Below, in pieces: positions 46,616 through 58,411 of a stretch of DNA of 64,000 nucleotides. The first letter of the stretch is position 1; every line of letters starts with the position of its first letter. Made by a program: the position numbers and the translations under genes. Source of the stretch: an uncultured Clostridium sp. (GTDB lineage Bacteria > Bacillota > Clostridia > TANB77 > CAG-508); assembly GCA_900552135.1 (NCBI GenBank), contig URYN01000008.1:21326-85325 (forward strand). The letters run 5' to 3'. The notes under the pieces are model-generated. The model was not told where the DNA came from, searched no databases, and saw only the letters and a program-made list of their open reading frames with translations.

Positions 46616-47971
46616 ATGAATTTTAAGAGGACTATAAAAAAATATGCAATTCAAGCAACAAAATATATATTAATTTTTATAATTTTAATTTGTATATATA
46701 TAATAACTTTAATTGGAACTAGTCTTACTCCTTCGAGTTGTATGAAAGAAAATGTAATAAAAAGCTCTGAAATACTCAAAGATGAAGGCGAAAAAAAATA
46801 CATTAATGTAGGATATAAAGACGCATCTGTATTTTTATTTACAGATGCACTTATGATTAATACGGCTTATTCCATAGATTCAAAAACTCCATTAGAAAGT
46901 GCTTTACTAGATAGAAAAAATTATATACCTGGGCAAACTTTATTAGAACATGAAGATCAACAGTATAATTTAGGTGCGTCTAAAAATTATACTGATGAGT
47001 ATGGAAATATATTTCAAACTGCTGAATTATATGGACTAATGCATGGAGAAAATATAACAGATTCATACGAATATGCAAGATATTGGCATGGTTACTTGAT
47101 AATATTAAGACCATTATTAGTTATTACCAATTATAATGGAATACGAATAATATTTTTATGCCTAATGATTGCTTTAGTTGGTTGGTTGATGTACTTAATA
47201 ATAAAGAAATTGAATATAAAGATTGCAATAATATTTTTATTAGGACTTATTTCTGCCAATATATTTGTAACAACACAGTCTTTTAATGAGATAGTAGTAT
47301 TTTTCATAGCTATAATATCATCAATATACTTATTACTGAAAAAAGACATAGAAAAAAATATAGGAATAGACTTCTTTATAATTGGCTCGGTGACGGTATT
47401 TATGGATTTGCTTACAGCTCCACTTGTTACTCTAGGCATGCCACTTGTAATATACTTTTTGTTGTCAGAGAGTAAGAAGAGGTCTGTAAAAGAAAACATA
47501 CTTACATTTATAAAGCTTTGTACCTGTTGGGCAATTGGCTATGGAATAACATGGGTTACAAAGTGGATAATAACATCAATAATATGTAACAGACCGATAA
47601 TTCAAAATGCCATTACACAAGCAAAATATAGAACTAAAAATTCAAAAATATCTTATGCAAATGTAGTAAAAAGAAATTTAACATTTTTATCTGATTTTAT
47701 AATTTTGATTTCTATGGCAATAATTGCAGTGTATACAATTATAAAACTAATAATAAATAGAAATGAAAAAATCAACTTAAAAGGAAATGCAAAGATGACT
47801 TTACCGTATCTATTTATTGGAATACTTCCATTTGCCTGGTATTTTGTACTTAAACAACATTCAATGATTCATTCATTTTTTACATATAGAATATTGTGCA
47901 TAACCGTAATATGTACATTTCTAATTGCAGAAAAAATAACAGAAAAAGAAATAATTAATAAAAATAATTAA
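46616..47971 (+). CDS. Hypothetical polytopic membrane protein
   Basis: ORF with ~10 predicted TM helices; no family recognised. Confidence 0.4.
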   Translation: MNFKRTIKKYAIQATKYILIFIILICIYIITLIGTSLTPSSCMKENVIKSSEILKDEGEKKYINVGYKDASVFLFTDALMINTAYSIDSKTPLESALLDRKNYIPGQTLLEHEDQQYNLGASKNYTDEYGNIFQTAELYGLMHGENITDSYEYARYWHGYLIILRPLLVITNYNGIRIIFLCLMIALVGWLMYLIIKKLNIKIAIIFLLGLISANIFVTTQSFNEIVVFFIAIISSIYLLLKKDIEKNIGIDFFIIGSVTVFMDLLTAPLVTLGMPLVIYFLLSESKKRSVKENILTFIKLCTCWAIGYGITWVTKWIITSIICNRPIIQNAITQAKYRTKNSKISYANVVKRNLTFLSDFIILISMAIIAVYTIIKLIINRNEKINLKGNAKMTLPYLFIGILPFAWYFVLKQHSMIHSFFTYRILCITVICTFLIAEKITEKEIINKNN

Positions 47972-47989
47972 AAGCTGAGGGAATACAAA

Positions 47990-49111
47990 ATGGAGAAAGA
48001 AAAAGAACGTAAGACTGGAATAGACTGTCTAAGAATAGTTGCAATGATAATGATATTATTTATTCATTTTTACGGAAGAGAAGCACTTCAACCAGAATTT
48101 AACTTAAGTGATGGTAACTATTATTTTATAATATTTTTAAAAGGAATGTGCTGTGTTGCAGTAAACTGCTTCTTCCTTATAACTGGATATTTTACAATAA
48201 ATAAAAGCATTAAATTTTCGAAAACATTAAAAATATGGGGAACCACACTATTCTATACACTTTCTTTTTTTCTAGTATTCATGTTTATAAGACAGGGGCA
48301 AGTTACAGGAACCGAAGTGTTACAATCATTCTTCCCAGTTGTAACTGAAAGCTACTGGTTTATTACAACATATATTGCGGTGAGCTTTCTATCTCCAATT
48401 ATATGCATAACAATTCCGAAACTTATGAAAAAACAATATAAATACCTTCTTACGACTTTAATAATAATACTAGTTATCATTGGTCAAGTTTATCCATACA
48501 CAGGAGTATTTAACAGCACAACGGGTTTAAATCTTGCAACAATGTTGTTAATGTATTTGATAGGTGGATATATAAGACTCCATTTAAACATTAAAAAAGA
48601 AAATAGCAATAAATATTTATTAGGATATATAATAATGAGCTTAATGATATTTTTAAATGCATTTATAATGGATATACTAGGAGCGTGTTTCGGAGGAATA
48701 TTCAAGTTATGGGCAAGGAAAGAATTTGCGTATAATTCAATATTTGTGGTAGCATCATCAGTATTATTGTTCCTGTATTTTGCAAGCATTGAAATTAAAG
48801 GAAAATTTGCAAAGAGGATAATTTCAACAGTACAACCCTTGATATTTGCAGTGTATATTATGCATGAAGACATATTCGTAAGATCGAAAACCCTAGGAGC
48901 TTTAAAATATCAAAATTCTGTATGGTTTATACCTGATTTATTTATAAAAATAACTTTACTATTTTTAGTATGTTGTTTCATAGAATACATAAGACAATTT
49001 ATAGGAAGACAATTCGCTAAATTAGAACTATTCAAAAGAATAATAAACAAAGTGCAAAAATTAGATGAAATACAGGTAAAAAGTTTATCAGAACAATGTG
49101 ATAAACAATAA
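47990..49111 (+). CDS. Acyltransferase family 3 (membrane O-acyltransferase)
   Basis: TGIDCLRIVAMIMILFIHF N-terminal Acyl_transf_3 signature; 10 TM. Confidence 0.7.
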   Translation: MEKEKERKTGIDCLRIVAMIMILFIHFYGREALQPEFNLSDGNYYFIIFLKGMCCVAVNCFFLITGYFTINKSIKFSKTLKIWGTTLFYTLSFFLVFMFIRQGQVTGTEVLQSFFPVVTESYWFITTYIAVSFLSPIICITIPKLMKKQYKYLLTTLIIILVIIGQVYPYTGVFNSTTGLNLATMLLMYLIGGYIRLHLNIKKENSNKYLLGYIIMSLMIFLNAFIMDILGACFGGIFKLWARKEFAYNSIFVVASSVLLFLYFASIEIKGKFAKRIISTVQPLIFAVYIMHEDIFVRSKTLGALKYQNSVWFIPDLFIKITLLFLVCCFIEYIRQFIGRQFAKLELFKRIINKVQKLDEIQVKSLSEQCDKQ

Positions 49112-49210
49112 TAAAAATTATTATTATATTATAATGGAAGCGTACATTGAAATTTTAAGAATAAAGAGAATGATATTATAGTTTAAATGAACTGAAAGGA
49201 GTAACTAACA

Positions 49211-49780
49211 ATGAAATTACTAATGCATACCTGCTGTGCACCATGTAGCGTGTACTGTATAGACAAACTAAGAGAAGAAGGAATAGAACCAACAGTATAC
49301 TGGTATAATCCAAATATCCACCCATACACGGAATACAAAGCACGTAGAGAATGCTTAAAAGAATATACAAAATCAATAAATGTACAAGCCATATTCGAAG
49401 AAGAATATGGCTTAGATGAGTTTTGCAAGGAAGCCGTAAAAAATTTAAACGCAAGATGTGTTAATTATTGCTATCCAGTTAGACTTAGAAAAACATTTGA
49501 ATATGCAAAAGAACATGGCTATGATACTGTTACTACCACATTGCTATACAGCATATATCAGAAACATGACTTTATAAAAAAATTAATGGAGCAGTACAGT
49601 GAAGAGTATGGAATAGATTTCTTGTACAGAGATTTTAGAGTAGGATTTTGGGAAGGACACCAAAAAGCTCATGACTTAGGTCTATATATGCAAAAATACT
49701 GTGGCTGTGTGTTTAGTGAGGAGGACAGATATGCTAAGCAAATCAAACGTGATAAAGAAAATATATTGACATCAAAATAA
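49211..49780 (+). CDS. queH: Epoxyqueuosine reductase QueH (DUF208)
   Basis: LLMHTCCAPCS N-terminal motif and CGC near C-terminus. Confidence 0.75.
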   Translation: MKLLMHTCCAPCSVYCIDKLREEGIEPTVYWYNPNIHPYTEYKARRECLKEYTKSINVQAIFEEEYGLDEFCKEAVKNLNARCVNYCYPVRLRKTFEYAKEHGYDTVTTTLLYSIYQKHDFIKKLMEQYSEEYGIDFLYRDFRVGFWEGHQKAHDLGLYMQKYCGCVFSEEDRYAKQIKRDKENILTSK

Positions 49781-49888
49781 ATCTGATATAAAATTTGATT
49801 AATAGTTTATAAGGAGCAATAAATATAGGTTAATAATAAAAAAATACGCGGCAAGAACTAAATAAAAAAGGAAAGGCGGTATTTTTTT

Positions 49889-50896
49889 ATGAATGATTTA
49901 GAATTAAATTTTTCGGAAATTATTAACATGATTGAAACAAGAAGACAAAATGCTTACAAAAAAGTAAATGAAGAGCTAATCTCCTTATATTGGGACTTCG
50001 GAAAATATATAAGTGAGAAAGTAAATGATTCTAACTGGGGAGATAAAATTGTAGACAAGTTAGTAGAATTTATGAAAAGAGAATATCCTACAATGAGAGG
50101 ATTTACTAGACGTGGAATATATAGAATGAAACAATTCTATGAAACATACAAAGATAATGAATTTGTGTCAACACTGTTGACACAAATTAGTTGGAGCAAT
50201 AATGTAAAGATTTTGAGTTCTACTAAATCTATTGAAGAGAAAGAATTTTATATAAAAATGTGCATTAAGTATAATTATACTGCTAGAGAATTAGATAGAC
50301 AAATTTCAAGTGGATATTTTTATAGATATATGTTATCAGACGGAAAGGCAAATCAAAGTTTATCAAAAGCTGTAGGAGAAGAAGACTATCCTAATACCAG
50401 AATATTAGACACTTATAGTTTAGAATTTTTGGATTTACCGAATCAGTATTCGGAAAGAGATTTGAAGAAATCAATTATTTCTAATATGAAGGATTTTATT
50501 TTAGAAATTGGAAAAGATTTTACTTATGTTGGCGAAGAATATAGAGTACAAGTTGGAAATGCAGATTTTTATATTGACTTATTATTTTACAATAGGGCCT
50601 TAAGTTGTTTAGTTGTTTTTGAACTTAAAACAGATGATTTTAAACCAGAATACATTTCAAAAATGGACTTTTATTTGGAAGCATTAGATAGACAAGAGAA
50701 AAAAGAAAACGAAAATCCGAGTGTGGGTGTAATTTTGTGTGCAAGTAAAAATGAACAAGTAGTTGAATATGCAATGAGCAGAAGTATGTCACCAACTATG
50801 GTATCTCAATATACATTGAATTTGATAGATAAGAAATTGTTGGAAAACAAATTGAAGGAAATTACGAATATAGTCGAGGAAAATAATAATAAATAA
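49889..50896 (+). CDS. YhcG-like protein: DUF1016 N-terminal domain + PDDEXK nuclease-fold C-terminal domain
   Basis: GNADFYIDLLFYNRALSCLVVFELK (D...EXK) block. Confidence 0.6.
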   Translation: MNDLELNFSEIINMIETRRQNAYKKVNEELISLYWDFGKYISEKVNDSNWGDKIVDKLVEFMKREYPTMRGFTRRGIYRMKQFYETYKDNEFVSTLLTQISWSNNVKILSSTKSIEEKEFYIKMCIKYNYTARELDRQISSGYFYRYMLSDGKANQSLSKAVGEEDYPNTRILDTYSLEFLDLPNQYSERDLKKSIISNMKDFILEIGKDFTYVGEEYRVQVGNADFYIDLLFYNRALSCLVVFELKTDDFKPEYISKMDFYLEALDRQEKKENENPSVGVILCASKNEQVVEYAMSRSMSPTMVSQYTLNLIDKKLLENKLKEITNIVEENNNK

Positions 50897-51090
50897 TTTT
50901 ATAGTCTTAACGACTTATCGAATGAGAAGATTAAGAGAAAAGAAAATGTATTCGAATTACTATAAATTCCCTAATAGTCACACACAAATTTACATAATTG
51001 ACTTTCGCACAGAAATTTGGTAAAATAAAAGTGTTGGCAGTGGCCAAAGCAAATCGCATATCCAAAATAACTATTTGGGAGGTTGCAACA

Positions 51091-51669
51091 ATGCAAAACA
51101 AGTTTACAAGAAGCTACTATGTTGGTTTGTGGAGTGAAATATTATCCACATATCAATGGTGGGGACGGGATCTCGTAACACTGCTGGAAAGCATTAAAGA
51201 AACAGACCCCGTTGTTGTAGAAACTTTCTGGAAGATGTACAACAAAACTGATGGAAAGTACAGTATTAAAACTTTGAGAGGTTACAAGTTCTATGAAATT
51301 CTTTCTCGGTTTATGGGAAGTGATGAGAAACTTGAGGTAAGTACTCGAGTAAAATCACTGAAAAAAGAAAACGAACTTCTTCAGACGAAATTGTTGGAGT
51401 GTTATAGAAGAAGGGATATTTTGATTGCAATCCTGTGTTTCACGCAGGAATTTGCAAACAAGAGGGCGGACAACGTCAGTATGTCCAGATACGGAAATGT
51501 TTTGACGGCTCGCTCGGACTCAGTGGACTTCTATGCTGAGCAAGACAGAAAACGGAAGGTGACCTATATAAGGATTACAATCCCTTGTGAACTGTGTATG
51601 GAGTACTGGCTCTGTGGAATTGAAAATGTTCCCGGAATCGAGTACATCATGAAAAAAACTGCAAAATAA
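51091..51669 (+). CDS. Hypothetical protein encoded in a GC-rich (~40%) patch, likely horizontally acquired
   Basis: ATG 51091 after GGGAGG; local GC markedly above flanks; no family recognised. Confidence 0.45.
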   Translation: MQNKFTRSYYVGLWSEILSTYQWWGRDLVTLLESIKETDPVVVETFWKMYNKTDGKYSIKTLRGYKFYEILSRFMGSDEKLEVSTRVKSLKKENELLQTKLLECYRRRDILIAILCFTQEFANKRADNVSMSRYGNVLTARSDSVDFYAEQDRKRKVTYIRITIPCELCMEYWLCGIENVPGIEYIMKKTAK

Positions 51670-51675
51670 TAAGTC

Positions 51676-51720
51676 TGGGACCCGGTACTTTTTAAGTGCC
51701 GGGGTTCCGGGCTTTTTTAT
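51676..51720 (+). terminator. GC-rich intrinsic terminator (GGGACCCGG...CCGGGGTTCC/GGGC + TTTTTTAT)
   Basis: Read directly. Confidence 0.5.
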
Positions 51721-51966
51721 ATTGAAAAAATCATTAATATTTATTTGAAAAATTTGCATAAATTTGAATTTGAAAATCAAAAAAGAAAAAAATTATATAA
51801 CTCACGATAAATCGTCAAGTGAAAAGTTAAATGCAATTCTGTAAAGTAAATGCAATTTACAATAAACTTAAAAAATTTTATTATATTGTTGAAAATTAAT
51901 CAAAAAAGTTATAGAATGTGATATAGCTATAGGTTGTTTATAACAAAACAAATGAAAGGGAAAAAT

Positions 51967-52672
51967 AATGAAAAATAAAGCAGTATTTATAGTTGTCATA
52001 GTTGCAATACTAATTATTATTACAACAATTAGTATTAATAACAATGAATAAAGATACTGGCTCTTCAAACACTACATTGAATGTAAAAGATGGAACAACA
52101 GTTATTTCGGATTCGGCAATTATAAATAAGAGCAAAATTACCAAAATTATAATGCCACCAACATTAAAAAAGATTGGAAATAGTGCTATATGTGGCTGTT
52201 CTAACTTAATTAGTGTAGAATTAAATGAGGGCTTAGAGGATATTGGAAATAATGCATTTTCTGCTTGCTCTTCATTAACTTCCATCACATTGCCTAGTAC
52301 ACTAAAATATATTAGATATCGTGCATTCTATAATTGTAGAAACATTGAATTTGGAAATCTCGTAACATTGAATTTGGAAATCTCGTAATTACGGAAGGTG
52401 TAAAAACGATAGGATCGTATTCATTCTATTATTGTTTGGGTATTAAAAGTTTAAAAACGCCTACTACACTATTTATGATTGCACAAAACACATTTAATAA
52501 TTGCTATAATTTGGAAAATGTAGAATTAGGAGAAGGCCTTAGAATAATAACAGAATATCAAACACCAGATAATGTATTAGAAAGTCCTCATAGTTATTAC
52601 AATTATATGAAAGAAAATTACACAAAAAGAATAGATGGTGCAATGATGTTAAAATTAATACGAAAGGAATAA
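51967..52672 (+). pseudogene. BspA-type leucine-rich-repeat surface protein gene, decayed: signal peptide split off by frameshift near 52044 and body broken by 23-bp tandem duplication
   Basis: MKNKAVFIVVIVAILIIITT signal ORF 51967-52050 in another frame; LRR units (IGNSAFSACSSLTSITLPSTLKYI); removing one 23-bp unit restores a single frame through 52672. Confidence 0.6.
52343..52388 (+). repeat. Perfect 23-bp tandem duplication (ACATTGAATTTGGAAATCTCGTA x2)
   Basis: Read directly; causes frameshift and TAA at 52386-88. Confidence 0.9.
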
Positions 52673-52680
52673 ATTGTAAT

Positions 52681-53880
52681 ATGAGAGATATTTTAAAAGA
52701 TTATAGAGCTGATGAAAATAATCCAAAATGGAAGAACATCGTTTCAAGGCAGAAATCTCTGTACAAAAGAGACGAAGACCTACGTTCTGAATTCGAAAGA
52801 GACTATACGAGAGTAATACATAGTAACAGTTATAGAAGAATGAAACATAAAACTCAGGTCATATTTTCGCCTGAAAATGACCATATATGTACAAGAACGG
52901 AACATGTTACTCATGTTGAATCAATCAGTTATACCATTGCCAAATATTTAGGACTAAACACAGAACTTACAAAGGCCATTGCGACTGCACACGATATTGG
53001 GCATAGTCCATTTGGGCATCAAGGCGAAAGAATACTGTCAGCAATATCACAAAGAGACTTGTCAAAGAAGTTTTGGCATGAGAAAAATGGTGTAGACTGC
53101 GTAGATAAAATAGAAGTTTTAGAAGATACTCATGGAGATTTTCAAAACCTTAATTTGACATATGCAACAAGAGATGGAATTATTTCTCATTGCGGAGAAA
53201 TCGACGAAAATTATTTAAGACCCAGAGAAGAATTCATCGATTTGAATGAATACAAAGAGCCAAACCAATATGCTCCTTACACATGGGAAGGCTGTGTTGT
53301 AAAGATTGCAGATAAGATTTCTTATTTAGGAAGAGATATTGAAGATGCTATAACACTTGGAATTTTAGACGATCATCTGGAAGAATTACATCAAATCTTG
53401 GAAGAGGCTCCAACACAAGTAATAAACAATACTGTTATAATAAACACATTAATAAGAGATTTATGTGAGAATTCTTCTTATGAAAAAGGCTTGTGCTTTT
53501 CAAAAGAAATATTTGATTGGATAAATAAGCTTAAGAAATTTAATTATAAATATATTTATATGTCACCAAAAGTGCGTAAAGCAATTCCATATTTTGAATT
53601 AATAATAAATACAATATATGAAACACTTATCGAGGCTTTTGATGGAAAAAATACTGACAACAATTTGGAAAAAATGAGTAAACAATATCCTGAACTTATT
53701 GCAAGCTTTAGAGAGTGGATGGCTAGATATTGGAATTTAGAAAGGCCAGTGAATTACAAAAATGATGTAATATTTAATATGGAAAATAAATCAGACTTTA
53801 GTAATGCAATAATTTATTATATATCTGGAATGACAGATAATTTCGCTATAGAAACATATAACAAAATAATTAGATTTTAA
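52681..53880 (+). CDS. dGTP triphosphohydrolase-like HD-domain protein
   Basis: YRRMKHKTQVF...RTEHVTHVESI...HDIGHSPFGH; family pattern of Dgt-like dNTPases. Confidence 0.75.
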   Translation: MRDILKDYRADENNPKWKNIVSRQKSLYKRDEDLRSEFERDYTRVIHSNSYRRMKHKTQVIFSPENDHICTRTEHVTHVESISYTIAKYLGLNTELTKAIATAHDIGHSPFGHQGERILSAISQRDLSKKFWHEKNGVDCVDKIEVLEDTHGDFQNLNLTYATRDGIISHCGEIDENYLRPREEFIDLNEYKEPNQYAPYTWEGCVVKIADKISYLGRDIEDAITLGILDDHLEELHQILEEAPTQVINNTVIINTLIRDLCENSSYEKGLCFSKEIFDWINKLKKFNYKYIYMSPKVRKAIPYFELIINTIYETLIEAFDGKNTDNNLEKMSKQYPELIASFREWMARYWNLERPVNYKNDVIFNMENKSDFSNAIIYYISGMTDNFAIETYNKIIRF

Positions 53881-53993
53881 TTTTTTAAAACTTGACTTTC
53901 ATACTGTAAAAAAATAAAATATATATGAATTATATTGGAATAATAAATCAATAAAATGTATCTATGAGAATTAACTAAGGAGCTATGAAATAA

Positions 53994-55616
53994 ATGAAAA
54001 AAATAATGGAAATTATTGCTGAAAGAAATTATAGTGAAGAAACGAAAAAATATATATTGTTATTTATTGACTCTTTTTCAGGAGTTTATGGAAAGTTCAT
54101 TTCTAAAGAAGAGTTGGTAAGAAGAATTACAAAAAACTTAACTTCTGATATTAATTTTACAAAAAATATAGATGACATGAATATTGGTTTATATAACCAA
54201 GCTACAAGACAAATTAGTATAAGGAAAACTGAGGTTGACTTTGAACACATCATAATACATGAAATGATTCATTGTATAACAAATTATTCTAATGAAGAAC
54301 AAATTGTAGATGGCTTTGACAGAACCATAGAGGACTTTGATAACAGAGGTTTTATATCTGAGGGCAAAGGCCTTAATGAGGGAATGGTTGATTACATGAC
54401 TAAACAAATTTGTGATAAATATAATTACAGCTTCAAAAGTGGATATAAAAGATTAAATGAAATTATAAAACACTTACTTCCGTTCACAGGGGAAAGTCTT
54501 ATAAAAGAATTTTTAAGTGAAAATTGTGATGTTCGAGGAATTTTAGAAGATATTGGCATCGAAGCTGAAACTTTTATTTCTGATGTTGATATGGTTGAAG
54601 CTAAGGAAAGAGCAAGACGAACAGTTTTTGATGAAGATAATTCAAAACTTGAAAATATGGTTTCTGCAATGAGAAAGATTGCGATGATATATCCTAGAGC
54701 CCAAACTGTTACAGAGCTAATTAGAAAGTACAATTTTTTTAAATCTTTATGCAAAGAATTTTTTGATCAAAATGAATTTGATATATTTAGTTTATTAATT
54801 GAAGATATTAGAGATTTGAAGCAAAAAGGTGTTGATTTATCTGAAGCAAGATTTATGACAAGGGATGAAGCTGTTAAAAGAGCTTTTAAAGCTGATAGTG
54901 CAATAACAAGAATTATGAGTATGAGTAGAGATGAAGTTGCATTAAATTTGGAAGATTTGTTATATGAAGATGATGACACTACAAATGTATTAGCACCAAG
55001 AATACATGAATATTTATTTTATGGAGAAAAATGCGGAAAAGAGATTTCGAACAGACTATATAGTTTAATTTCTGTTAAGAATTATTTAAGGGAGCACCCT
55101 GAAATTGATTACAGAGAATTGTCTTTTGCGGTATATGATTATTTAAATATTTTTGTGGCCTACGATAAAGATGAAAAAAAAGTTAATATATATGATTTAG
55201 GAGAAGATGAAATTCTTTCAGAAACACCAGAAGGGCTTGAAGATGATACAGAAATGGTTAAAGTATATGGAAGTGTAGTTAAAGATGCAGAATATAAATT
55301 ATATGTAGCAAAAAGCCAAAGAAGGCATTTTGAGAAAGATGGAATGCCTCAAGTATTAATAGAAATTGCTGAAAAGGATTGTGTAAGAAAGCAAAGAAAT
55401 TTAGACGAGATGAAAGAAGAAATAGAAGAAAGTAAAGAACGCAGAATGACTAATATTTTACAGAATAAGCAGGCTACTCAATCAGCTGAATTAGCTGAAG
55501 CAAAAGACGTAAAAGCAACATCAGCTTCAAATGAATTAAATGCAGTAAATAACACAGGCTATACAGGTAATAATAAGTCTTCTGATGAATCTAAGAAAGA
55601 GGGACAAGATAGATAA
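53994..55616 (+). CDS. Hypothetical 540-aa protein with N-terminal HExxH (IIIHEMIHCI) putative zinc-metallopeptidase motif and acidic C-terminal region
   Basis: Own promoter-like TTGACT-17-TAAAAT at 53891-53919; no family recognised beyond motif. Confidence 0.45.
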   Translation: MKKIMEIIAERNYSEETKKYILLFIDSFSGVYGKFISKEELVRRITKNLTSDINFTKNIDDMNIGLYNQATRQISIRKTEVDFEHIIIHEMIHCITNYSNEEQIVDGFDRTIEDFDNRGFISEGKGLNEGMVDYMTKQICDKYNYSFKSGYKRLNEIIKHLLPFTGESLIKEFLSENCDVRGILEDIGIEAETFISDVDMVEAKERARRTVFDEDNSKLENMVSAMRKIAMIYPRAQTVTELIRKYNFFKSLCKEFFDQNEFDIFSLLIEDIRDLKQKGVDLSEARFMTRDEAVKRAFKADSAITRIMSMSRDEVALNLEDLLYEDDDTTNVLAPRIHEYLFYGEKCGKEISNRLYSLISVKNYLREHPEIDYRELSFAVYDYLNIFVAYDKDEKKVNIYDLGEDEILSETPEGLEDDTEMVKVYGSVVKDAEYKLYVAKSQRRHFEKDGMPQVLIEIAEKDCVRKQRNLDEMKEEIEESKERRMTNILQNKQATQSAELAEAKDVKATSASNELNAVNNTGYTGNNKSSDESKKEGQDR

Positions 55617-55639
55617 AGACAAAGGAAGGAAAATTAAAA

Positions 55640-58411
55640 ATGTCAAGTAATAGATTATTAATAATAGATGGTAACAGTATAATGAATAGAGCTTTTTATG
55701 GAATAATGAGCTCTAAATCATTGATGTCTGCAGATGGAATGTATACAAATGCGATATACGGATTTTTGTCAATTTTATTTAAGGAACTTGAAGATTTAAA
55801 TCCAGATTATATTGCAGTTGCTTTTGATTTAAAAGCTCCAACCCACAGACACAAGATGTTTTCTGAATATAAAGGTACAAGACATGCAATGCCAGAAGAA
55901 CTAGCACAGCAAATGCCTGTTATAAAAGAAATACTAAGAAACATGAACATAACTATAATCGAGAAAGAAGGATACGAGGCTGATGATGTTTTAGGAACTA
56001 TATCAAAACAGGCAGAAAAAGCCGGACACGAGGTTACTATTCTTTCAGGAGATAGGGATACTTTTCAACTTGCAAGTAAACATATTACTATAAGAATTCC
56101 AAGAACAAAGATGGGAAAGACTGAAACAGAGGATTATGATGAAAACAAGGTTAAAGAAGAGTACGGAGTTACACCCGTACAGTTAATTCAGGTAAAGGGA
56201 TTGATGGGTGATACCTCTGATAATATTCCTGGTGTTCCTGGAGTAGGAGAGAAAACTGCACTAAAACTTGTAAAGGAATACAAGAATATAGACAATATAT
56301 ATAAGGAGTTAGAAGCGGGAACTTCAGATATAAAAGGAACATTAAAAACGAAATTAGAGAATAATAAAGATTCTGCATTAATGTCTAGAACCCTTGGAAC
56401 AATATTACTTGATGCCCCTCTTGGCATTGAAATAGAAGATTTAAGAAAACAAGAGTGGAACATGGAAGCTGTAACTAATAAATTTAAAGAATTACAGTTT
56501 AATAGATTTATAGAAAGATTTAATTTAAACGGCTTAGGAACAGCTAAAAAAGAAACAAAATTAGAAGATTTATTCAAGGTAAAAGAGCTTAATATAGAGG
56601 ATAAAAAGGAAATATCAGAAGAAATAAAAAGTATTGAAGAAAAAAATAAATTTATCTATTACTTTGAAAAAGTCGAAGCCGAAGGATATGAAAATAAAAT
56701 AATAAAACTCGAAATAAAATCAATTTGTTTTGTAGGAAAAGATGATAACACAATTGTCTATTTACCGTTCGACATTTCTAGAATAGAAGAATATAGAGAA
56801 TTATTAAACATTTTTGAAAATCCAAATATAGAGAAGATTGGATATAAAACAAAGCATGATTTTGTAATTCTTAAGGAATTAGGAATTGAATATAATAATA
56901 TAAAATATGATGCTGAAATTGCTGGATATAATATAAATCCAACAGATAAAAATACTATAGAAGAAATGAGCAATAAGTATTTAGAGATAGATATAGATGA
57001 GTACCTTCAAAATGAGTTCAAAGATTTACAAGAAAATAAGAATAAGCAAATTAATTTATTTGATGCTATGCAGGATGATTCTGAGCAAGCAAAAGAATTA
57101 GCAAGAAAGAATAAATTGACAAACTCATTCTATTGCTACATTATTTCTAAACTTGAACCTGTTACATTAGAAAAACTAAAAGCTGAACATACACTCGAAC
57201 TATTTAATAATATTGAAATGCCACTTGTGCCAGTACTTGCAGAAATGCAATACAATGGAATGTTAGTTGATAAACAAGAGCTTGTAAATTTGGGAGTAGT
57301 TTTAAAACAACAACTTGAAGATATAACAAAAGACATATACGAATTAAGTGGAGAAGAATTCAATATAAATTCACATCAACAACTAGGCAAGATATTATTT
57401 GAAAAATTACAACTGCCAGTATATAAAAAGACCAAGAATGGTTATACCACAGATGTAGATGTTCTAGAAAAACTTAAGGATAAGCATCCAATAATAGAAA
57501 AAATATTGGAATACAGAACCTTAATGAAACTTAACTCTACTTATGTTGAAGGATTAATGCCTTATATAAATGAAAATACAAATAGAATTCACTCGAGTTT
57601 TCATCAAACTATAACTGCAACAGGAAGAATAAGCAGTACAGAGCCAAATCTTCAAAACATTCCAACTAGGGCAGAATTAGGAAAGCAAATAAGAAAAGCA
57701 TTTAAACCTGCACCAGGAAATGTATATATAGATGCAGATTATTCGCAAGTTGAACTAAGAGTTCTAGCACATATATCTGGTGATGAAAACATGATTTATG
57801 CATTCAATCATAATGAAGATATTCACAGACAAGTAGCTTCAAAAATTTTAAATATTCCGATGGAAGAAGTTACAAAAGAGCAACGTTCATCTGCAAAAGC
57901 TGTAAATTTCGGGATAGTTTATGGAATAAGTGATTATGGATTAGCAAACCAAATTGGTGTAAGCAACAAACAAGCTAAAGAGTATATAAGCCAATATCTA
58001 GAAAAATATAATGGCATAAAACAATTCATGGACGAGATAGTTGAAAGAGCTAAGAACAATGGGTATGTCGAAACATTATTCGGAAGAAGAAGATATATTC
58101 CAGAAATAAAATCAAGCAACTACATGGTTAGACAATTTGGAGCAAGAGTTGCCATGAATACACCTATTCAAGGTACTGCGGCAGACATAATGAAAATTGC
58201 AATGATAAATGTTTATAATGAATTGAAACAGAGCAAAATTAGTGCTAGAATAGTATTGCAAATACACGACGAATTGCTTCTTGAAGTTTCAGAAAACGAC
58301 AAAGAAGAAGCTAAGAAAATATTGAAAAATTGCATGGAACGTGCAAAAAAACTTGTAGTACCATTACAAGTTGAATTATCAGAAGGTGATAGCTGGTATG
58401 AGGTTAAATAA
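55640..58411 (+). CDS. polA: DNA polymerase I
   Basis: 5'-nuclease N-terminus (LLIIDGNS...), polymerase motifs DYSQVELR, KAVNFGIVYG, QIHDELLLEV. Confidence 0.95.
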   Translation: MSSNRLLIIDGNSIMNRAFYGIMSSKSLMSADGMYTNAIYGFLSILFKELEDLNPDYIAVAFDLKAPTHRHKMFSEYKGTRHAMPEELAQQMPVIKEILRNMNITIIEKEGYEADDVLGTISKQAEKAGHEVTILSGDRDTFQLASKHITIRIPRTKMGKTETEDYDENKVKEEYGVTPVQLIQVKGLMGDTSDNIPGVPGVGEKTALKLVKEYKNIDNIYKELEAGTSDIKGTLKTKLENNKDSALMSRTLGTILLDAPLGIEIEDLRKQEWNMEAVTNKFKELQFNRFIERFNLNGLGTAKKETKLEDLFKVKELNIEDKKEISEEIKSIEEKNKFIYYFEKVEAEGYENKIIKLEIKSICFVGKDDNTIVYLPFDISRIEEYRELLNIFENPNIEKIGYKTKHDFVILKELGIEYNNIKYDAEIAGYNINPTDKNTIEEMSNKYLEIDIDEYLQNEFKDLQENKNKQINLFDAMQDDSEQAKELARKNKLTNSFYCYIISKLEPVTLEKLKAEHTLELFNNIEMPLVPVLAEMQYNGMLVDKQELVNLGVVLKQQLEDITKDIYELSGEEFNINSHQQLGKILFEKLQLPVYKKTKNGYTTDVDVLEKLKDKHPIIEKILEYRTLMKLNSTYVEGLMPYINENTNRIHSSFHQTITATGRISSTEPNLQNIPTRAELGKQIRKAFKPAPGNVYIDADYSQVELRVLAHISGDENMIYAFNHNEDIHRQVASKILNIPMEEVTKEQRSSAKAVNFGIVYGISDYGLANQIGVSNKQAKEYISQYLEKYNGIKQFMDEIVERAKNNGYVETLFGRRRYIPEIKSSNYMVRQFGARVAMNTPIQGTAADIMKIAMINVYNELKQSKISARIVLQIHDELLLEVSENDKEEAKKILKNCMERAKKLVVPLQVELSEGDSWYEVK

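What the first reader, a model, noticed from the sequence alone, without database searches (positions are those of the whole stretch)
49889..55616. Candidate accessory/defence-like island between queH and polA: YhcG-type PDDEXK nuclease, orphan foreign ORF, dGTPase-like HD protein, HExxH protein
Between two core genes lie five accessory genes. These are a DUF1016+PDDEXK (YhcG-like) nuclease, the GC-rich orphan ORF, the LRR pseudogene, a Dgt-like dNTP triphosphohydrolase and a 540-aa HExxH protein. dGTPase-family enzymes have been reported as anti-phage effectors, and PDDEXK/YhcG proteins recur in defence islands. The mosaic composition and pseudogenisation mark this as a variable region. If a new system is hidden in this window, the dGTPase plus HExxH-protein pair or the YhcG plus orphan ORF pair are the most plausible candidates.
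Basis: inference. Interest (0 to 1): 0.65.

Follow-up and report, generated by a model that had tools for sequence, protein, structure and literature searches.

The report
Variable slot beside housekeeping dGTPase
The stretch between queH and polA in this uncultured gut Clostridia genome is a strain-variable patch (a swappable YhcG nuclease gene, a foreign orphan gene, a wrecked adhesin gene) lying next to a conserved housekeeping-type dGTPase and a lineage-specific predicted zinc protease; it is not a coherent anti-phage system.

Summary
They do not form one island or a paired system.

- **dGTPase (52681-53880):** behaves like a core gene. dN/dS is 0.05-0.07, as for PolA and RuvB. It sits directly upstream of polA in other species that lack every other 'island' gene. 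In more distant genomes its neighbours are housekeeping genes. It scores far below NCBI's anti-phage dGTPase cut-off (122 against 400 bits).
- **YhcG (49889-50896):** truly accessory. A near-conspecific genome carries an unrelated 163-aa gene in exactly that slot. YhcG matches only an unvalidated PADLOC candidate, PDC-S02.
- **Orphan (true start 51091):** a real, conserved gene of foreign composition with its own promoter and terminator. It stays when YhcG is swapped out. Distant homologues ride on mobile elements.
- **LRR 'pseudogene':** the remnant of a 1196-aa BspA-type adhesin plus a GtrII glycosyltransferase cassette, destroyed by three deletions and a 23-bp duplication.
- **540-aa HExxH protein:** belongs to an unnamed, narrow family with an HExxH…E zincin signature, a confident AlphaFold model and no fold match. 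It never co-occurs with the dGTPase outside this lineage.

Overall this is a variable region of low interest. The HExxH family is the only real unknown.

The parts
49211..49780 (+). queH (epoxyqueuosine reductase), the conserved left flank
   Evidence: Pfam QueH E=3.6e-56. It is 99% identical in L005 and L112, with dN/dS 0.02.
49767..50981 (.). Swap cassette. This segment is non-homologous to the near-conspecific L112, where an 800-bp segment with a 163-aa unknown gene takes its place. It runs from the last 14 bp of queH to 16 bp upstream of the orphan's -35 box.
   Evidence: blastn of the window against L112 shows colinear blocks ending at 49766 and resuming at 50982.
49889..50896 (+). YhcG-type protein (DUF1016_N + PD-(D/E)xK YhcG_C) with an intact motif (E189, D230, E245-x-K247). 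It is strain-variable.
   Evidence: Pfam 1.3e-39 and 7.5e-55. PADLOC PDC-S02 1e-123. phrog_22762 1e-80. Present in L005 at 96% aa, absent in L112, L093 and L115. dN/dS 0.17. Promoter-like TTGACA-17-TAAAAT at 49766-49794.
50982..51717 (+). Self-contained orphan module: promoter, 192-aa CDS and terminator. It is conserved in the window, L005 and L112.
   Evidence: 93.9% nt identity to L112 7667-8403. Extended -10 promoter TTGACT-17-(TG)TAAAAT at 50998-1026, conserved in L005.
51091..51669 (+). Orphan CDS, 192 aa, of foreign composition, belonging to an unnamed family
   Evidence: GC 0.396, GC3 0.443. 24 homologues down to 45% identity with invariant motifs FTRxxYV, LIAILCF and RITIPCEL. dN/dS 0.19-0.35. 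No hit in Pfam, NCBIfam, PADLOC, PHROGs or PDB.
51671..51720 (+). Intrinsic terminator of the orphan
   Evidence: The hairpin folds at -30.1 kcal/mol, z=-6.2, and is followed by U6.
51969..52672 (+). Remnant of a cell-surface cassette. It holds the signal-anchor start of a 141-aa gene fused to fragments of a BspA-type LRR_5 adhesin (residues about 491-651 and 976-1022 of the 1196-aa L005 protein).
   Evidence: Pfam LRR_5 2.1e-21 and 5.5e-05. tblastn and blastn against L005. The downstream L005 gene lost here is a GtrII glucosyltransferase (1.1e-14). The remnant is entirely absent in L112.
52341..52386 (+). 23-bp tandem duplication (2 x 23 nt) that frameshifts the LRR remnant
   Evidence: Alignment with the intact L005 gene shows a clean 23-nt insertion. 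The repeat finder places the same duplication nine bases to the left, at 52332-52377 (D3).
52681..53880 (+). Housekeeping-type dGTPase-like dNTP triphosphohydrolase. Catalytic residues H75, H104-D105, H113/E116 and D211 are present.
   Evidence: Pfam HD + HD_assoc. TIGR01353 152.8 bits against a 152.35 cut-off. Anti-phage dGTPase NF041026 122.6 against 400. Best PDB relative is 2dqb at 1.3e-31. Directly upstream of polA in L091, L093 and L094. dN/dS 0.05-0.07.
53994..55616 (+). 540-aa predicted cytoplasmic zincin-like metalloprotease of an unnamed family. It has an N-terminal catalytic domain (H89-E90-x-x-H93, E129 in GLNEG), an all-helical middle, a small beta unit, a long coiled coil and a disordered tail.
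   Evidence: 79 representative relatives in 1.84 billion proteins. H89, E90, H93 and E129 are invariant in 40 sequences. AlphaFold2 pLDDT 86.7, pTM 0.79. No fold match in PDB or BFVD. SprT-like and DUF6782 sub-threshold hits in 12 and 10 of 40 members. Promoter-like site at 53892-53920. dN/dS 0.14-0.36.
55640..58411 (+). polA (DNA polymerase I), the conserved right flank
   Evidence: Pfam families listed. 97.6% aa identity to L112, dN/dS 0.06.

Best explanation
The queH-polA interval is a long-standing chromosomal variable region in this group of uncultured, AT-rich gut Clostridia. It is built around a housekeeping dgt-polA core and is not a defence island or a multi-gene system. It has five independent components.

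1. **dgt.** This is a vertically inherited dNTP triphosphohydrolase of the Thermus TT1383 / TIGR01353 type. It hydrolyses dNTPs to nucleoside plus triphosphate and so trims the dNTP pool. Any antiviral effect would be the generic pool-limiting effect known for basal Dgt enzymes (inferred).
2. **The slot downstream of queH.** A short slot immediately after queH accepts alternative single genes. In this strain it holds an intact YhcG PD-(D/E)xK nuclease-fold gene. Its most likely role is a stand-alone nuclease acting on foreign or damaged DNA (inferred; the family is untested).
3. **The orphan.** A 736-bp autonomous module (promoter, 192-aa CDS, terminator) of foreign composition was acquired from a mobile element. 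It is now maintained by purifying selection, independently of what sits upstream.
4. **The surface cassette.** A cassette of anchored small proteins, a BspA-type LRR adhesin and a GtrII glycosyltransferase has been destroyed by three deletions and a 23-bp duplication. It is non-functional.
5. **The HExxH protein.** A fast-evolving, lineage-restricted cytoplasmic zinc metalloprotease sits directly upstream of polA, with its own promoter-like site in the 113-bp gap after dgt. Co-transcription with dgt or polA was not tested. The active site is gluzincin-like (HExxH plus a downstream Glu). In this lineage it lacks the small partner proteins that accompany it elsewhere.
For: **Synteny.**
- L093/L094 read RuvB-DUF2142-QueH-hydrolase-dGTPase-PolA-SLT-Glug. 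L091 reads His_Phos_1-dGTPase-PolA-SLT. The dgt-polA gaps there are 31 and 14 bp, with no YhcG, orphan, LRR or HExxH gene.
- L095 reads RuvB-PepF-dGTPase-enolase.
- In eight more distant genomes the sampled flanking genes include a HAD hydrolase, a guanylate-kinase-like protein, Hsp33, KsgA and a metallophosphoesterase.
- The family is very widespread: 598 of 599 pattern matches in GTDB species encode a relative.

**Selection.** dN/dS is 0.066 and 0.050 for dGTPase, against 0.061 for PolA and 0.034-0.071 for RuvB. YhcG is 0.17, the orphan 0.19-0.35 and HExxH 0.14-0.36. None of these four genes looks like a decaying gene on this measure.

**Strain comparison.** L112 is 93-97% identical in nucleotides and has the same gene order. 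It replaces window 49767-50981 (YhcG) with an unrelated 163-aa gene, keeps the orphan module and lacks the LRR remnant.

**Orphan.** Its 46% homologues lie among serine recombinases, TnpV, Mob_Pre and a SocA_Panacea pair (L007). Others lie next to an rve transposase (L009), and a 97%-identical copy of its convergent 133-aa neighbour lies beside it at a second genomic site (L010).

**Pseudogene anatomy:**

**HExxH family:**

**Defence predictors.** PADLOC models hit only YhcG (candidate PDC-S02) and the generic dGTPase model (E=4e-52). Nothing hits the orphan, the HExxH protein or their partners elsewhere.
Against: - The interval does collect genes typical of defence or mobile neighbourhoods: YhcG here and Virulence_RhuM in L115. 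'Hotspot that sometimes holds defence genes' therefore remains tenable.
- The PADLOC dGTPase HMM does match (4e-52). Recent work shows that stand-alone, core-like dGTPases can protect against phages when expressed (PMC13519002). Conservation does not exclude an immune contribution.
- dGTPase is missing from the queH-polA interval in L115, so its position is not universal.
- The queH-to-HExxH segment is far more similar between the window and L005 (dS 0.08-0.22) than RuvB is (dS 1.5). The whole block, dgt included, has therefore moved between lineages by recombination at least once.
- The functions of YhcG, the orphan and the HExxH protein are inferred, not shown.
Confidence: 0.75

Rival explanations
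1. dGTPase plus the HExxH protein form a two-gene anti-phage system. A nucleotide-depleting effector would be regulated or activated by an accessory metalloprotease, by analogy with dNTPase-plus-accessory systems such as CloA-CloB.
For: - The two genes are adjacent and co-oriented, 113 bp apart.
- The pair is kept in three related lineages: the window, L005 and L112.
- There is precedent for dNTPases with an accessory gene (PMC12265719).
- PADLOC's dGTPase HMM matches at 4e-52.
Against: - dGTPase orthologues (75-77% identical) abut polA with no HExxH gene.
- None of 80 dGTPase loci from other species has an HExxH relative within 10 kb.
- None of about 15 HExxH-family loci outside this lineage has a dGTPase.
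- The HExxH gene has its own promoter-like site.
- The dGTPase has core-like dN/dS and scores 122.6 against a 400-bit cut-off for anti-phage dGTPase.
- The known accessory partner is a nucleotidyltransferase, which is absent here.
Confidence: 0.04
2. YhcG and the orphan ORF form a two-gene module, for example a nuclease effector with a regulator, immunity or sensor partner.
For: The two genes are adjacent and co-oriented in the window and in L005. Both lie in the variable part of the interval.
Against: - L112 keeps the orphan at 93.9% nt identity but has an unrelated 163-aa gene instead of YhcG. The breakpoint lies 16 bp upstream of the orphan's own promoter.
- The orphan's distant homologues have unrelated neighbours and never a YhcG.
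- The two genes differ sharply in composition, GC3 0.22 against 0.44.
- YhcG is catalogued as a single-gene candidate.
Confidence: 0.05
3. YhcG alone is a functional single-gene anti-phage or anti-mobile-element nuclease, and the slot after queH is a small defence hotspot.
For: - It has strong full-length matches to PADLOC PDC-S02 models (1e-123) and to the CRISPR-associated PD-DExK model.
- The PD-(D/E)xK motif is intact.
- It is swapped between near-conspecific strains.
- It is under purifying selection.
- A RhuM-family gene lies in the equivalent interval of L115.
Against: - PDC-S02 is only a candidate. The one representative tested in E. coli B against T4, T5 and T7 was not among the protective systems (bioRxiv 10.1101/2024.09.26.614923).
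- The alternative occupants of the slot (163-aa unknown, alpha/beta hydrolase) have no defence signature.
- YhcG relatives also occur in phage genomes (phrog_22762).
Confidence: 0.3
4. The HExxH protein is a DNA-repair protease, such as a SprT/Wss1-like DNA-protein crosslink protease, functionally linked to polA.
For: - It lies immediately upstream of polA (23-bp gap) in this lineage.
- A 40%-identical relative in a different genus has the same position, there preceded by a DnaB_C-like helicase.
- 12 of 40 family members give sub-threshold SprT-like hits.
Against: - The window protein's own SprT-like hit is E=0.11 and covers only the HExxH helix.
- Equal numbers of members hit DUF6782. There is no DNA-binding domain and no fold match.
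- Most family members are not near polA.
- The gene is absent from closer relatives that have the same polA context (L093).
Confidence: 0.1

Closest known systems
TT1383-type / TIGR01353 dGTP (dNTP) triphosphohydrolases, i.e. housekeeping Dgt-family HD enzymes (PDB 2dqb, Thermus thermophilus)
   Same: It has the HD + HD_assoc architecture at about 400 aa. The metal-binding and catalytic residues are all present (H75, H104-D105, H113/E116, D211). The best solved relative is 2dqb (1.3e-31), and it just reaches the TIGR01353 cut-off.
   Different: It is below every NCBIfam equivalog cut-off (best 224.7 against 393). It is therefore a divergent Clostridia subfamily whose substrate range has not been tested.
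Anti-phage dGTPases (NF041026 / PADLOC 'dGTPase') and the CloA-CloB dNTPase-nucleotidyltransferase system
   Same: They share the enzyme superfamily and catalytic chemistry. PADLOC's dGTPase HMM aligns over most of the protein (4e-52).
   Different: - It scores 122.6 against the 400-bit cut-off of the anti-phage model.
- It shows only weak similarity to the solved chains deposited as 'DNTP triphosphohydrolase' (9p8s-9p8v, E about 1e-9 to 1e-11), which are probably the CloA structures.
- There is no nucleotidyltransferase partner.
- Its context is housekeeping, and it is under core-like selection.
YhcG / DUF1016 PD-(D/E)xK proteins (PADLOC candidate PDC-S02)
   Same: It matches both Pfam domains full-length above their cut-offs and matches the PDC-S02 models. 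The nuclease motif is intact, and it behaves as a strain-variable single gene.
   Different: Nothing distinguishes it from the family. The family itself has no demonstrated activity or defence phenotype.
Zincin metallopeptidases of the SprT-like / DUF6782 / ImmA-IrrE (M78) kind
   Same: It has an HExxH helix followed by a helix carrying a conserved Glu (H89, E90, H93, E129). It is cytoplasmic, and some relatives give weak hits to these Pfam families.
   Different: - No member reaches a Pfam gathering score.
- The proteins are 520-640 aa, with a large helical domain, a beta unit and a coiled coil not seen in those families.
- There is no HTH repressor partner. Instead, some relatives have a 67-88-aa beta-rich upstream protein and a 91-157-aa helical downstream protein.
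- There is no Foldseek match in PDB or BFVD.
BspA-type LRR_5 surface adhesins with an adjacent GtrII glucosyltransferase
   Same: The fragments at 52044-52672 match LRR_5 and are 75-97% identical to parts of the intact 1196-aa L005 protein.
   Different: Only about 210 of 1196 codons survive, in broken frames. The gene is dead.

Membership tests
Anti-phage dGTPase (NCBIfam NF041026 / Tal-type) | Score at or above the curated model cut-off (400 bits) | tested here: not met
   122.6 bits, matching mainly residues 23-169.
Anti-phage dGTPase (NCBIfam NF041026 / Tal-type) | Accessory distribution and location in defence or mobile neighbourhoods | tested here: not met
   It is syntenic with polA and RuvB in four other lineages. 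In distant genomes the neighbours are housekeeping genes. dN/dS is 0.05-0.07.
Anti-phage dGTPase (NCBIfam NF041026 / Tal-type) | Phage protection through dGTP depletion on infection | not testable with these tools
   This needs a phage challenge and dNTP measurement.
Dgt-family dNTP triphosphohydrolase (TIGR01353) | HD domain with metal ligands and the H/E catalytic dyad, plus the HD_assoc C-terminal domain | tested here: met
   Pfam HD 7.3e-12 and HD_assoc 2.6e-09. TIGR01353 152.8 bits against a 152.35 cut-off. H75, H104-D105, H113, E116 and D211 are invariant in 12 orthologues.
CloA-CloB (dNTPase + nucleotidyltransferase) system | Adjacent accessory nucleotidyltransferase gene | tested here: not met
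   The neighbours are the LRR remnant and the HExxH protein. There is no NTase domain in the interval. The system is described in PMC12265719.
YhcG / DUF1016 (Pfam PF17761 + PF06250; PADLOC PDC-S02) | Both Pfam domains above gathering score | tested here: met
   135.9 against 32.8 bits and 185.5 against 32.5 bits. PDC-S02 at 411 bits.
YhcG / DUF1016 (Pfam PF17761 + PF06250; PADLOC PDC-S02) | PD-(D/E)xK catalytic motif | tested here: met
   D230 and E245-L-K247 are present, as is the upstream E189. Nuclease activity itself was not tested.
YhcG / DUF1016 (Pfam PF17761 + PF06250; PADLOC PDC-S02) | Demonstrated anti-phage function | not testable with these tools
   The only experimental report I found lists PDC-S02 among eight tested candidates but not among the four that protected.
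SprT-like zincin (PF10263) | Score at or above the Pfam gathering threshold (25.6 bits) | tested here: not met
   The window protein scores 12.8 bits, E=0.11, over the HExxH helix only. Relatives reach at best E=1.4e-05.
Gluzincin-type metallopeptidase (general) | HExxH plus a downstream Glu as third zinc ligand, conserved across the family | tested here: met
   H89, E90, H93 and E129 are invariant in 40 sequences and at least 90% conserved in 67. Zinc binding and proteolysis were not tested.
ImmA/IrrE (M78) protease-repressor pair | Adjacent HTH (XRE-type) repressor gene and an M78 domain | tested here: not met
   There is no HTH neighbour in the window. Only 1 of 40 relatives gives a weak M78 hit (0.0022).
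Genomic or defence island | Mobility hallmarks (integrase, tRNA or att repeats) and atypical composition over the whole block | tested here: not met
   Only short, probably chance repeats were found, with no RNA-family hit. No integrase or transposase family appears among the interval's proteins. Only the orphan deviates in GC.

The most novel reading that the evidence does not exclude
The 540-aa HExxH protein may represent an undescribed family of large cytoplasmic zincin-like proteases.
- The family has about 79 representative clusters. The contigs I recovered are all AT-rich (25-29% GC) and mostly from gut metagenomes.
- Its multi-domain fold has no counterpart in PDB or BFVD.
- In some of the relatives' loci it lies in a compact 2-3-gene operon, with a 67-88-aa upstream partner (4 of 13 loci) and a 91-157-aa downstream partner (3 loci).

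If true, this would be a new protease-based regulatory, toxin-antitoxin-like or conflict module. The copy here would be a 'solo' that has lost its partners.
Probability: 0.15. Interest if true: 0.55.

Novelty: new member of a known kind. Interest (0 to 1): 0.2.

Why it matters
The main value is as a caution. A dGTPase hit from a defence-system HMM, next to unknown genes and a pseudogene, looks like a defence island. Comparing a handful of related contigs shows instead a housekeeping dgt-polA core with an ordinary variable slot beside it.

Three things may be worth keeping:
- The position just after queH is a precise gene-swap slot. It could be mined for further single-gene candidates in this uncultured lineage.
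- The unnamed orphan family is associated with mobile elements.
- The unnamed HExxH family has a confident structure model and conserved small partners, and would be a tractable target for biochemical characterisation.

Tried and rejected
- **Single-sequence AlphaFold2 of the HExxH protein.** The model was useless (pLDDT 42). I redid it with a 67-sequence alignment.
- **Profile search of PDB sequences with the HExxH family.** It returned only chance hits.
- **Word-indexed homologue search for the HExxH protein.** It found only 3 relatives. The exhaustive search was needed.
- **IMG/VR scan for the HExxH family.** It found no relatives, so there is no evidence for a phage origin.
- **PHROGs, PADLOC, Pfam and NCBIfam on the orphan, the 163-aa alternative gene and the HExxH partner proteins.** There were no informative hits.
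- **Search for a conserved upstream partner of the orphan family.** There is none. The upstream genes in L007, L009, L010 and L112 are unrelated.
- **Search for remnants of the HExxH small partners in the window.** There are none.
- **Rfam and repeat scans of 49000-56000.** I found no RNA element and no att-like flanking repeats.

Full report
**1. What is in the sequence**

The window is AT-rich (29% GC). It matches metagenome-assembled contigs of an uncultured Clostridia bacterium; the exact 540-aa protein lies on a 136-kb contig. Between queH (49211-49780) and polA (55640-58411), all on the + strand, lie five elements:
- a YhcG-type protein at 49889-50896 (DUF1016_N 1.3e-39, YhcG_C 7.5e-55);
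- a 192-aa ORF whose real start is the ATG at 51091, behind a GGGAGG site;
- broken LRR_5 fragments at 51969-52672;
- an HD + HD_assoc dGTPase-like protein at 52681-53880;
- a 540-aa protein at 53994-55616 with HEMIH at residues 89-93.

Only the orphan is compositionally foreign, with GC 0.396 and GC3 0.443 against GC3 0.18-0.28 for all its neighbours. There is no integrase in the interval's proteins, no RNA-family hit and no flanking repeats beyond short, probably chance ones.

**2. Comparison with related genomes**

Exact-protein look-ups returned contigs at several evolutionary distances.

- **L112** is 93-97% identical in nucleotides and has the same gene order from upstream of RuvB to Glug. 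It reads QueH, 163-aa unknown, orphan, dGTPase, HExxH, PolA.
  - Window 49767-50981 (YhcG) is replaced by 800 unrelated bases.
  - The orphan module 50982-51717 is kept at 93.9% identity.
  - The LRR remnant 51718-52655 is absent.
- **L005** has RuvB only 78.5% identical in nucleotides (dS 1.5). It reads QueH, YhcG, orphan, 141-aa, 68-aa, an intact 1196-aa LRR_5 protein, a 500-aa GtrII glucosyltransferase, dGTPase, HExxH.
- **L093/L094** (dGTPase 75% identical) read RuvB, DUF2142, QueH, alpha/beta hydrolase, dGTPase, PolA, SLT, Glug. **L091** (77%) reads His_Phos_1, dGTPase, PolA, SLT. In both, dgt abuts polA and nothing else from the 'island' is present.
- **L095** (69%) reads RuvB, oligoendopeptidase F, dGTPase, enolase.
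- **L115/L116**, a more distant genus with the same PolA-SLT-Glug-epimerase backbone, carries in the interval a 221-aa gene, RhuM, EcsC, His_Phos_1, a 299-aa gene, HTH_40, a DnaB_C-like helicase, an 88-aa gene and an HExxH relative. It has no dGTPase there.

The interval is therefore an old variable region. Its parts have different histories.

**3. The dGTPase is housekeeping-type**

- It has thousands of relatives. A pattern scan of one genome per GTDB species found relatives in 598 of 599 matches, from Clostridia to Bacteroidales, Treponema and Gastranaerophilales.
- In 80 of those loci no other 'island' gene lies within 10 kb, apart from one distant YhcG-like match (28% identity, L046). The sampled neighbours include a HAD hydrolase, a guanylate-kinase-like protein, Hsp33, KsgA and a metallophosphoesterase.
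- Its dN/dS is 0.066 against L112 and 0.050 against L005. This is the same range as PolA (0.061) and RuvB (0.034-0.071).
- All catalytic residues are present. The closest solved structure is the Thermus thermophilus enzyme 2dqb.
- It just reaches the general TIGR01353 cut-off. It scores 122.6 against 400 bits for NCBI's anti-phage dGTPase model.
- PADLOC's dGTPase HMM matches at 4e-52. That model evidently also picks up basal enzymes.
- One caveat comes from the literature. Stand-alone dGTPases, including E. coli Dgt and a Vibrio enzyme, can restrict phages (PMC9478638; PMC13519002). A core enzyme may still contribute to immunity, but this does not make it part of an island.

**4. Neither proposed pair holds**

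*dGTPase plus HExxH.* The pair exists only in the window, L005 and L112. dGTPase orthologues elsewhere lack the HExxH gene, and HExxH relatives elsewhere lack a dGTPase. The known dNTPase two-gene system uses a nucleotidyltransferase partner (PMC12265719), which is absent here.

*YhcG plus orphan.* L112 swaps YhcG out but keeps the orphan. The breakpoint is 16 bp upstream of the orphan's own extended -10 promoter, TTGACT-17-TG-TAAAAT at 50998-51026, which is conserved in L005. The orphan ends in a strong terminator (-30.1 kcal/mol, z=-6.2). Distant orphan homologues have unrelated neighbours.

**5. YhcG**

It is intact (E189, D230, E245-x-K247), under purifying selection (dN/dS 0.17) and strain-variable. 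It matches the PADLOC candidate PDC-S02 (1e-123) and a PHROG of unknown function (1e-80). The only experimental mention I found lists PDC-S02 among eight candidates tested in E. coli B against T4, T5 and T7, but not among the four that protected. It is the one defence-like element here, and it remains unproven.

**6. The orphan**

- It has 24 homologues down to 45% identity, with invariant motifs FTRxxYVxxW, LIAILCF and RITIPCEL. Its dN/dS is 0.19-0.35, so it is a real gene.
- It has no match in Pfam, NCBIfam, PADLOC, PHROGs or PDB.
- Its 46% homologues sit in a serine-recombinase / TnpV / Mob_Pre element next to a SocA_Panacea pair (L007), or beside an rve transposase (L009). With the same convergent 133-aa neighbour (97% identical protein), such a homologue also sits at a different chromosomal site (L010).
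- It is best read as mobile-element cargo now fixed at this locus. Its function is unknown.

**7. The LRR remnant**

Relative to L005, three deletions removed L005 8943-10981, 11464-12464 and 12567-14669. The first junction fuses the signal-anchor start of the 141-aa gene to LRR codon about 491. A 23-bp tandem duplication at 52341-52386 adds a frameshift. This was a surface adhesin and glycosylation cassette, not defence.

**8. The HExxH protein**

- **Family size.** The word-indexed search found only 3 close relatives. An exhaustive HMMER search of 1.84 billion representatives found 79.
- **Active-site signature.** The conserved part is the first roughly 200 residues. H89, E90, H93 and E129 are invariant in 40 sequences, within the motifs FHEMIHCIT and GxGLxEG. 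This is a gluzincin-type signature.
- **Structure.** With a 67-sequence alignment AlphaFold2 gives pLDDT 86.7 and pTM 0.79. The model has an alpha/beta catalytic domain (about 1-145), a helical domain (about 150-370), a small beta unit (377-425), a long coiled coil (428-512) and a disordered tail. Foldseek finds nothing significant in PDB or BFVD.
- **Family assignment.** Relatives give sub-threshold SprT-like (12 of 40) and DUF6782 (10 of 40) hits. The window protein itself scores only E=0.11, so membership in those families is not established.
- **Phage origin.** No relatives were found in IMG/VR.
- **Context elsewhere.** Four of 13 loci have a homologous 67-88-aa protein immediately upstream, and three have a 91-157-aa helical protein overlapping the 3' end; a homologue of the latter lies further upstream in two more loci. 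Neither partner occurs in the window. A 40%-identical relative also sits directly upstream of polA in L097 and L115.
- **Selection.** dN/dS is 0.14-0.36, so the gene is functional but evolving fast.
- **Reading.** The most likely function is a cytoplasmic zinc-dependent protease with an unknown substrate. A polA-linked repair role is possible but weakly supported.

**9. Verdict**

The interpretation as a variable region is right. The interpretation as a defence island with candidate two-gene systems is not supported. Interest is low. The HExxH family, and to a lesser degree the orphan family, are uncharacterised but unremarkable unknowns.

Noticed in passing
window 49193-54546 versus L005 6100-16576: From 18 bp upstream of queH to at least the first third of the HExxH gene, this block is 92-97% identical in nucleotides between the window and L005 (dS 0.08-0.22). 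The adjacent RuvB is only 78.5% identical (dS 1.5), and L005's upstream genes follow the L093 arrangement instead. This points to a recent recombinational transfer of the whole block, dgt included, between two lineages. The right-hand end could not be seen because the locus stops there.
   Followed up: partly
window 46616-49111: A second variable slot lies between RuvB and queH. The window and L112 carry a 451-aa multi-pass membrane protein plus an Acyl_transf_3 protein. L005 and L093 carry a single DUF2142 membrane protein there. These look like cell-envelope modification genes. Their dN/dS against L112 is high (0.34-0.46), with very low dS.
   Followed up: no
window ~51826 (start of L002, L003, L004): Three independent Logan contigs from different samples all begin at the same base, 219 bp upstream of the LRR fragment ORF. 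This is 108 bp inside the segment that L112 lacks. It suggests an assembly-graph branch caused by strain polymorphism or a repeat at that point. The cause was not identified.
   Followed up: no
L097 3854-4120, L099 1983-2198, L101 459-671, L104 7789-7992: A conserved 67-88-aa beta-rich protein (motif Y-[IV]-E-[YF]-R-N ... K-F-[FM]-E) lies immediately upstream of HExxH-family genes in four unrelated contigs. It has no database annotation. It may be a partner or substrate of the protease.
   Followed up: partly
L097 1667-3391, L115 7855-9579, L013 4749-6461 (-), L015 2799-4607 (-): A divergent 574-aa DnaB_C-like ATPase (PHROG DnaB-like helicase 6e-26, Pfam DnaB_C 3e-08) lies upstream of the HExxH relative in one genus. 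In two other genomes it lies 3.5-5 kb upstream of the dGTPase. Its role is unclear.
   Followed up: no
L009 4357-5932 and L010 8001-9577: In each of these two loci an orphan-family gene lies beside a convergent 133-aa protein (the two copies are 97% identical) with a minimal nucleotidyltransferase-like GS...DIDIA motif. The two chromosomal contexts differ, which suggests a small mobile two-gene unit.
   Followed up: partly
L115 1499-2551: In this more distant genus queH is fused to a GNAT acetyltransferase domain, giving a 350-aa protein.
   Followed up: no
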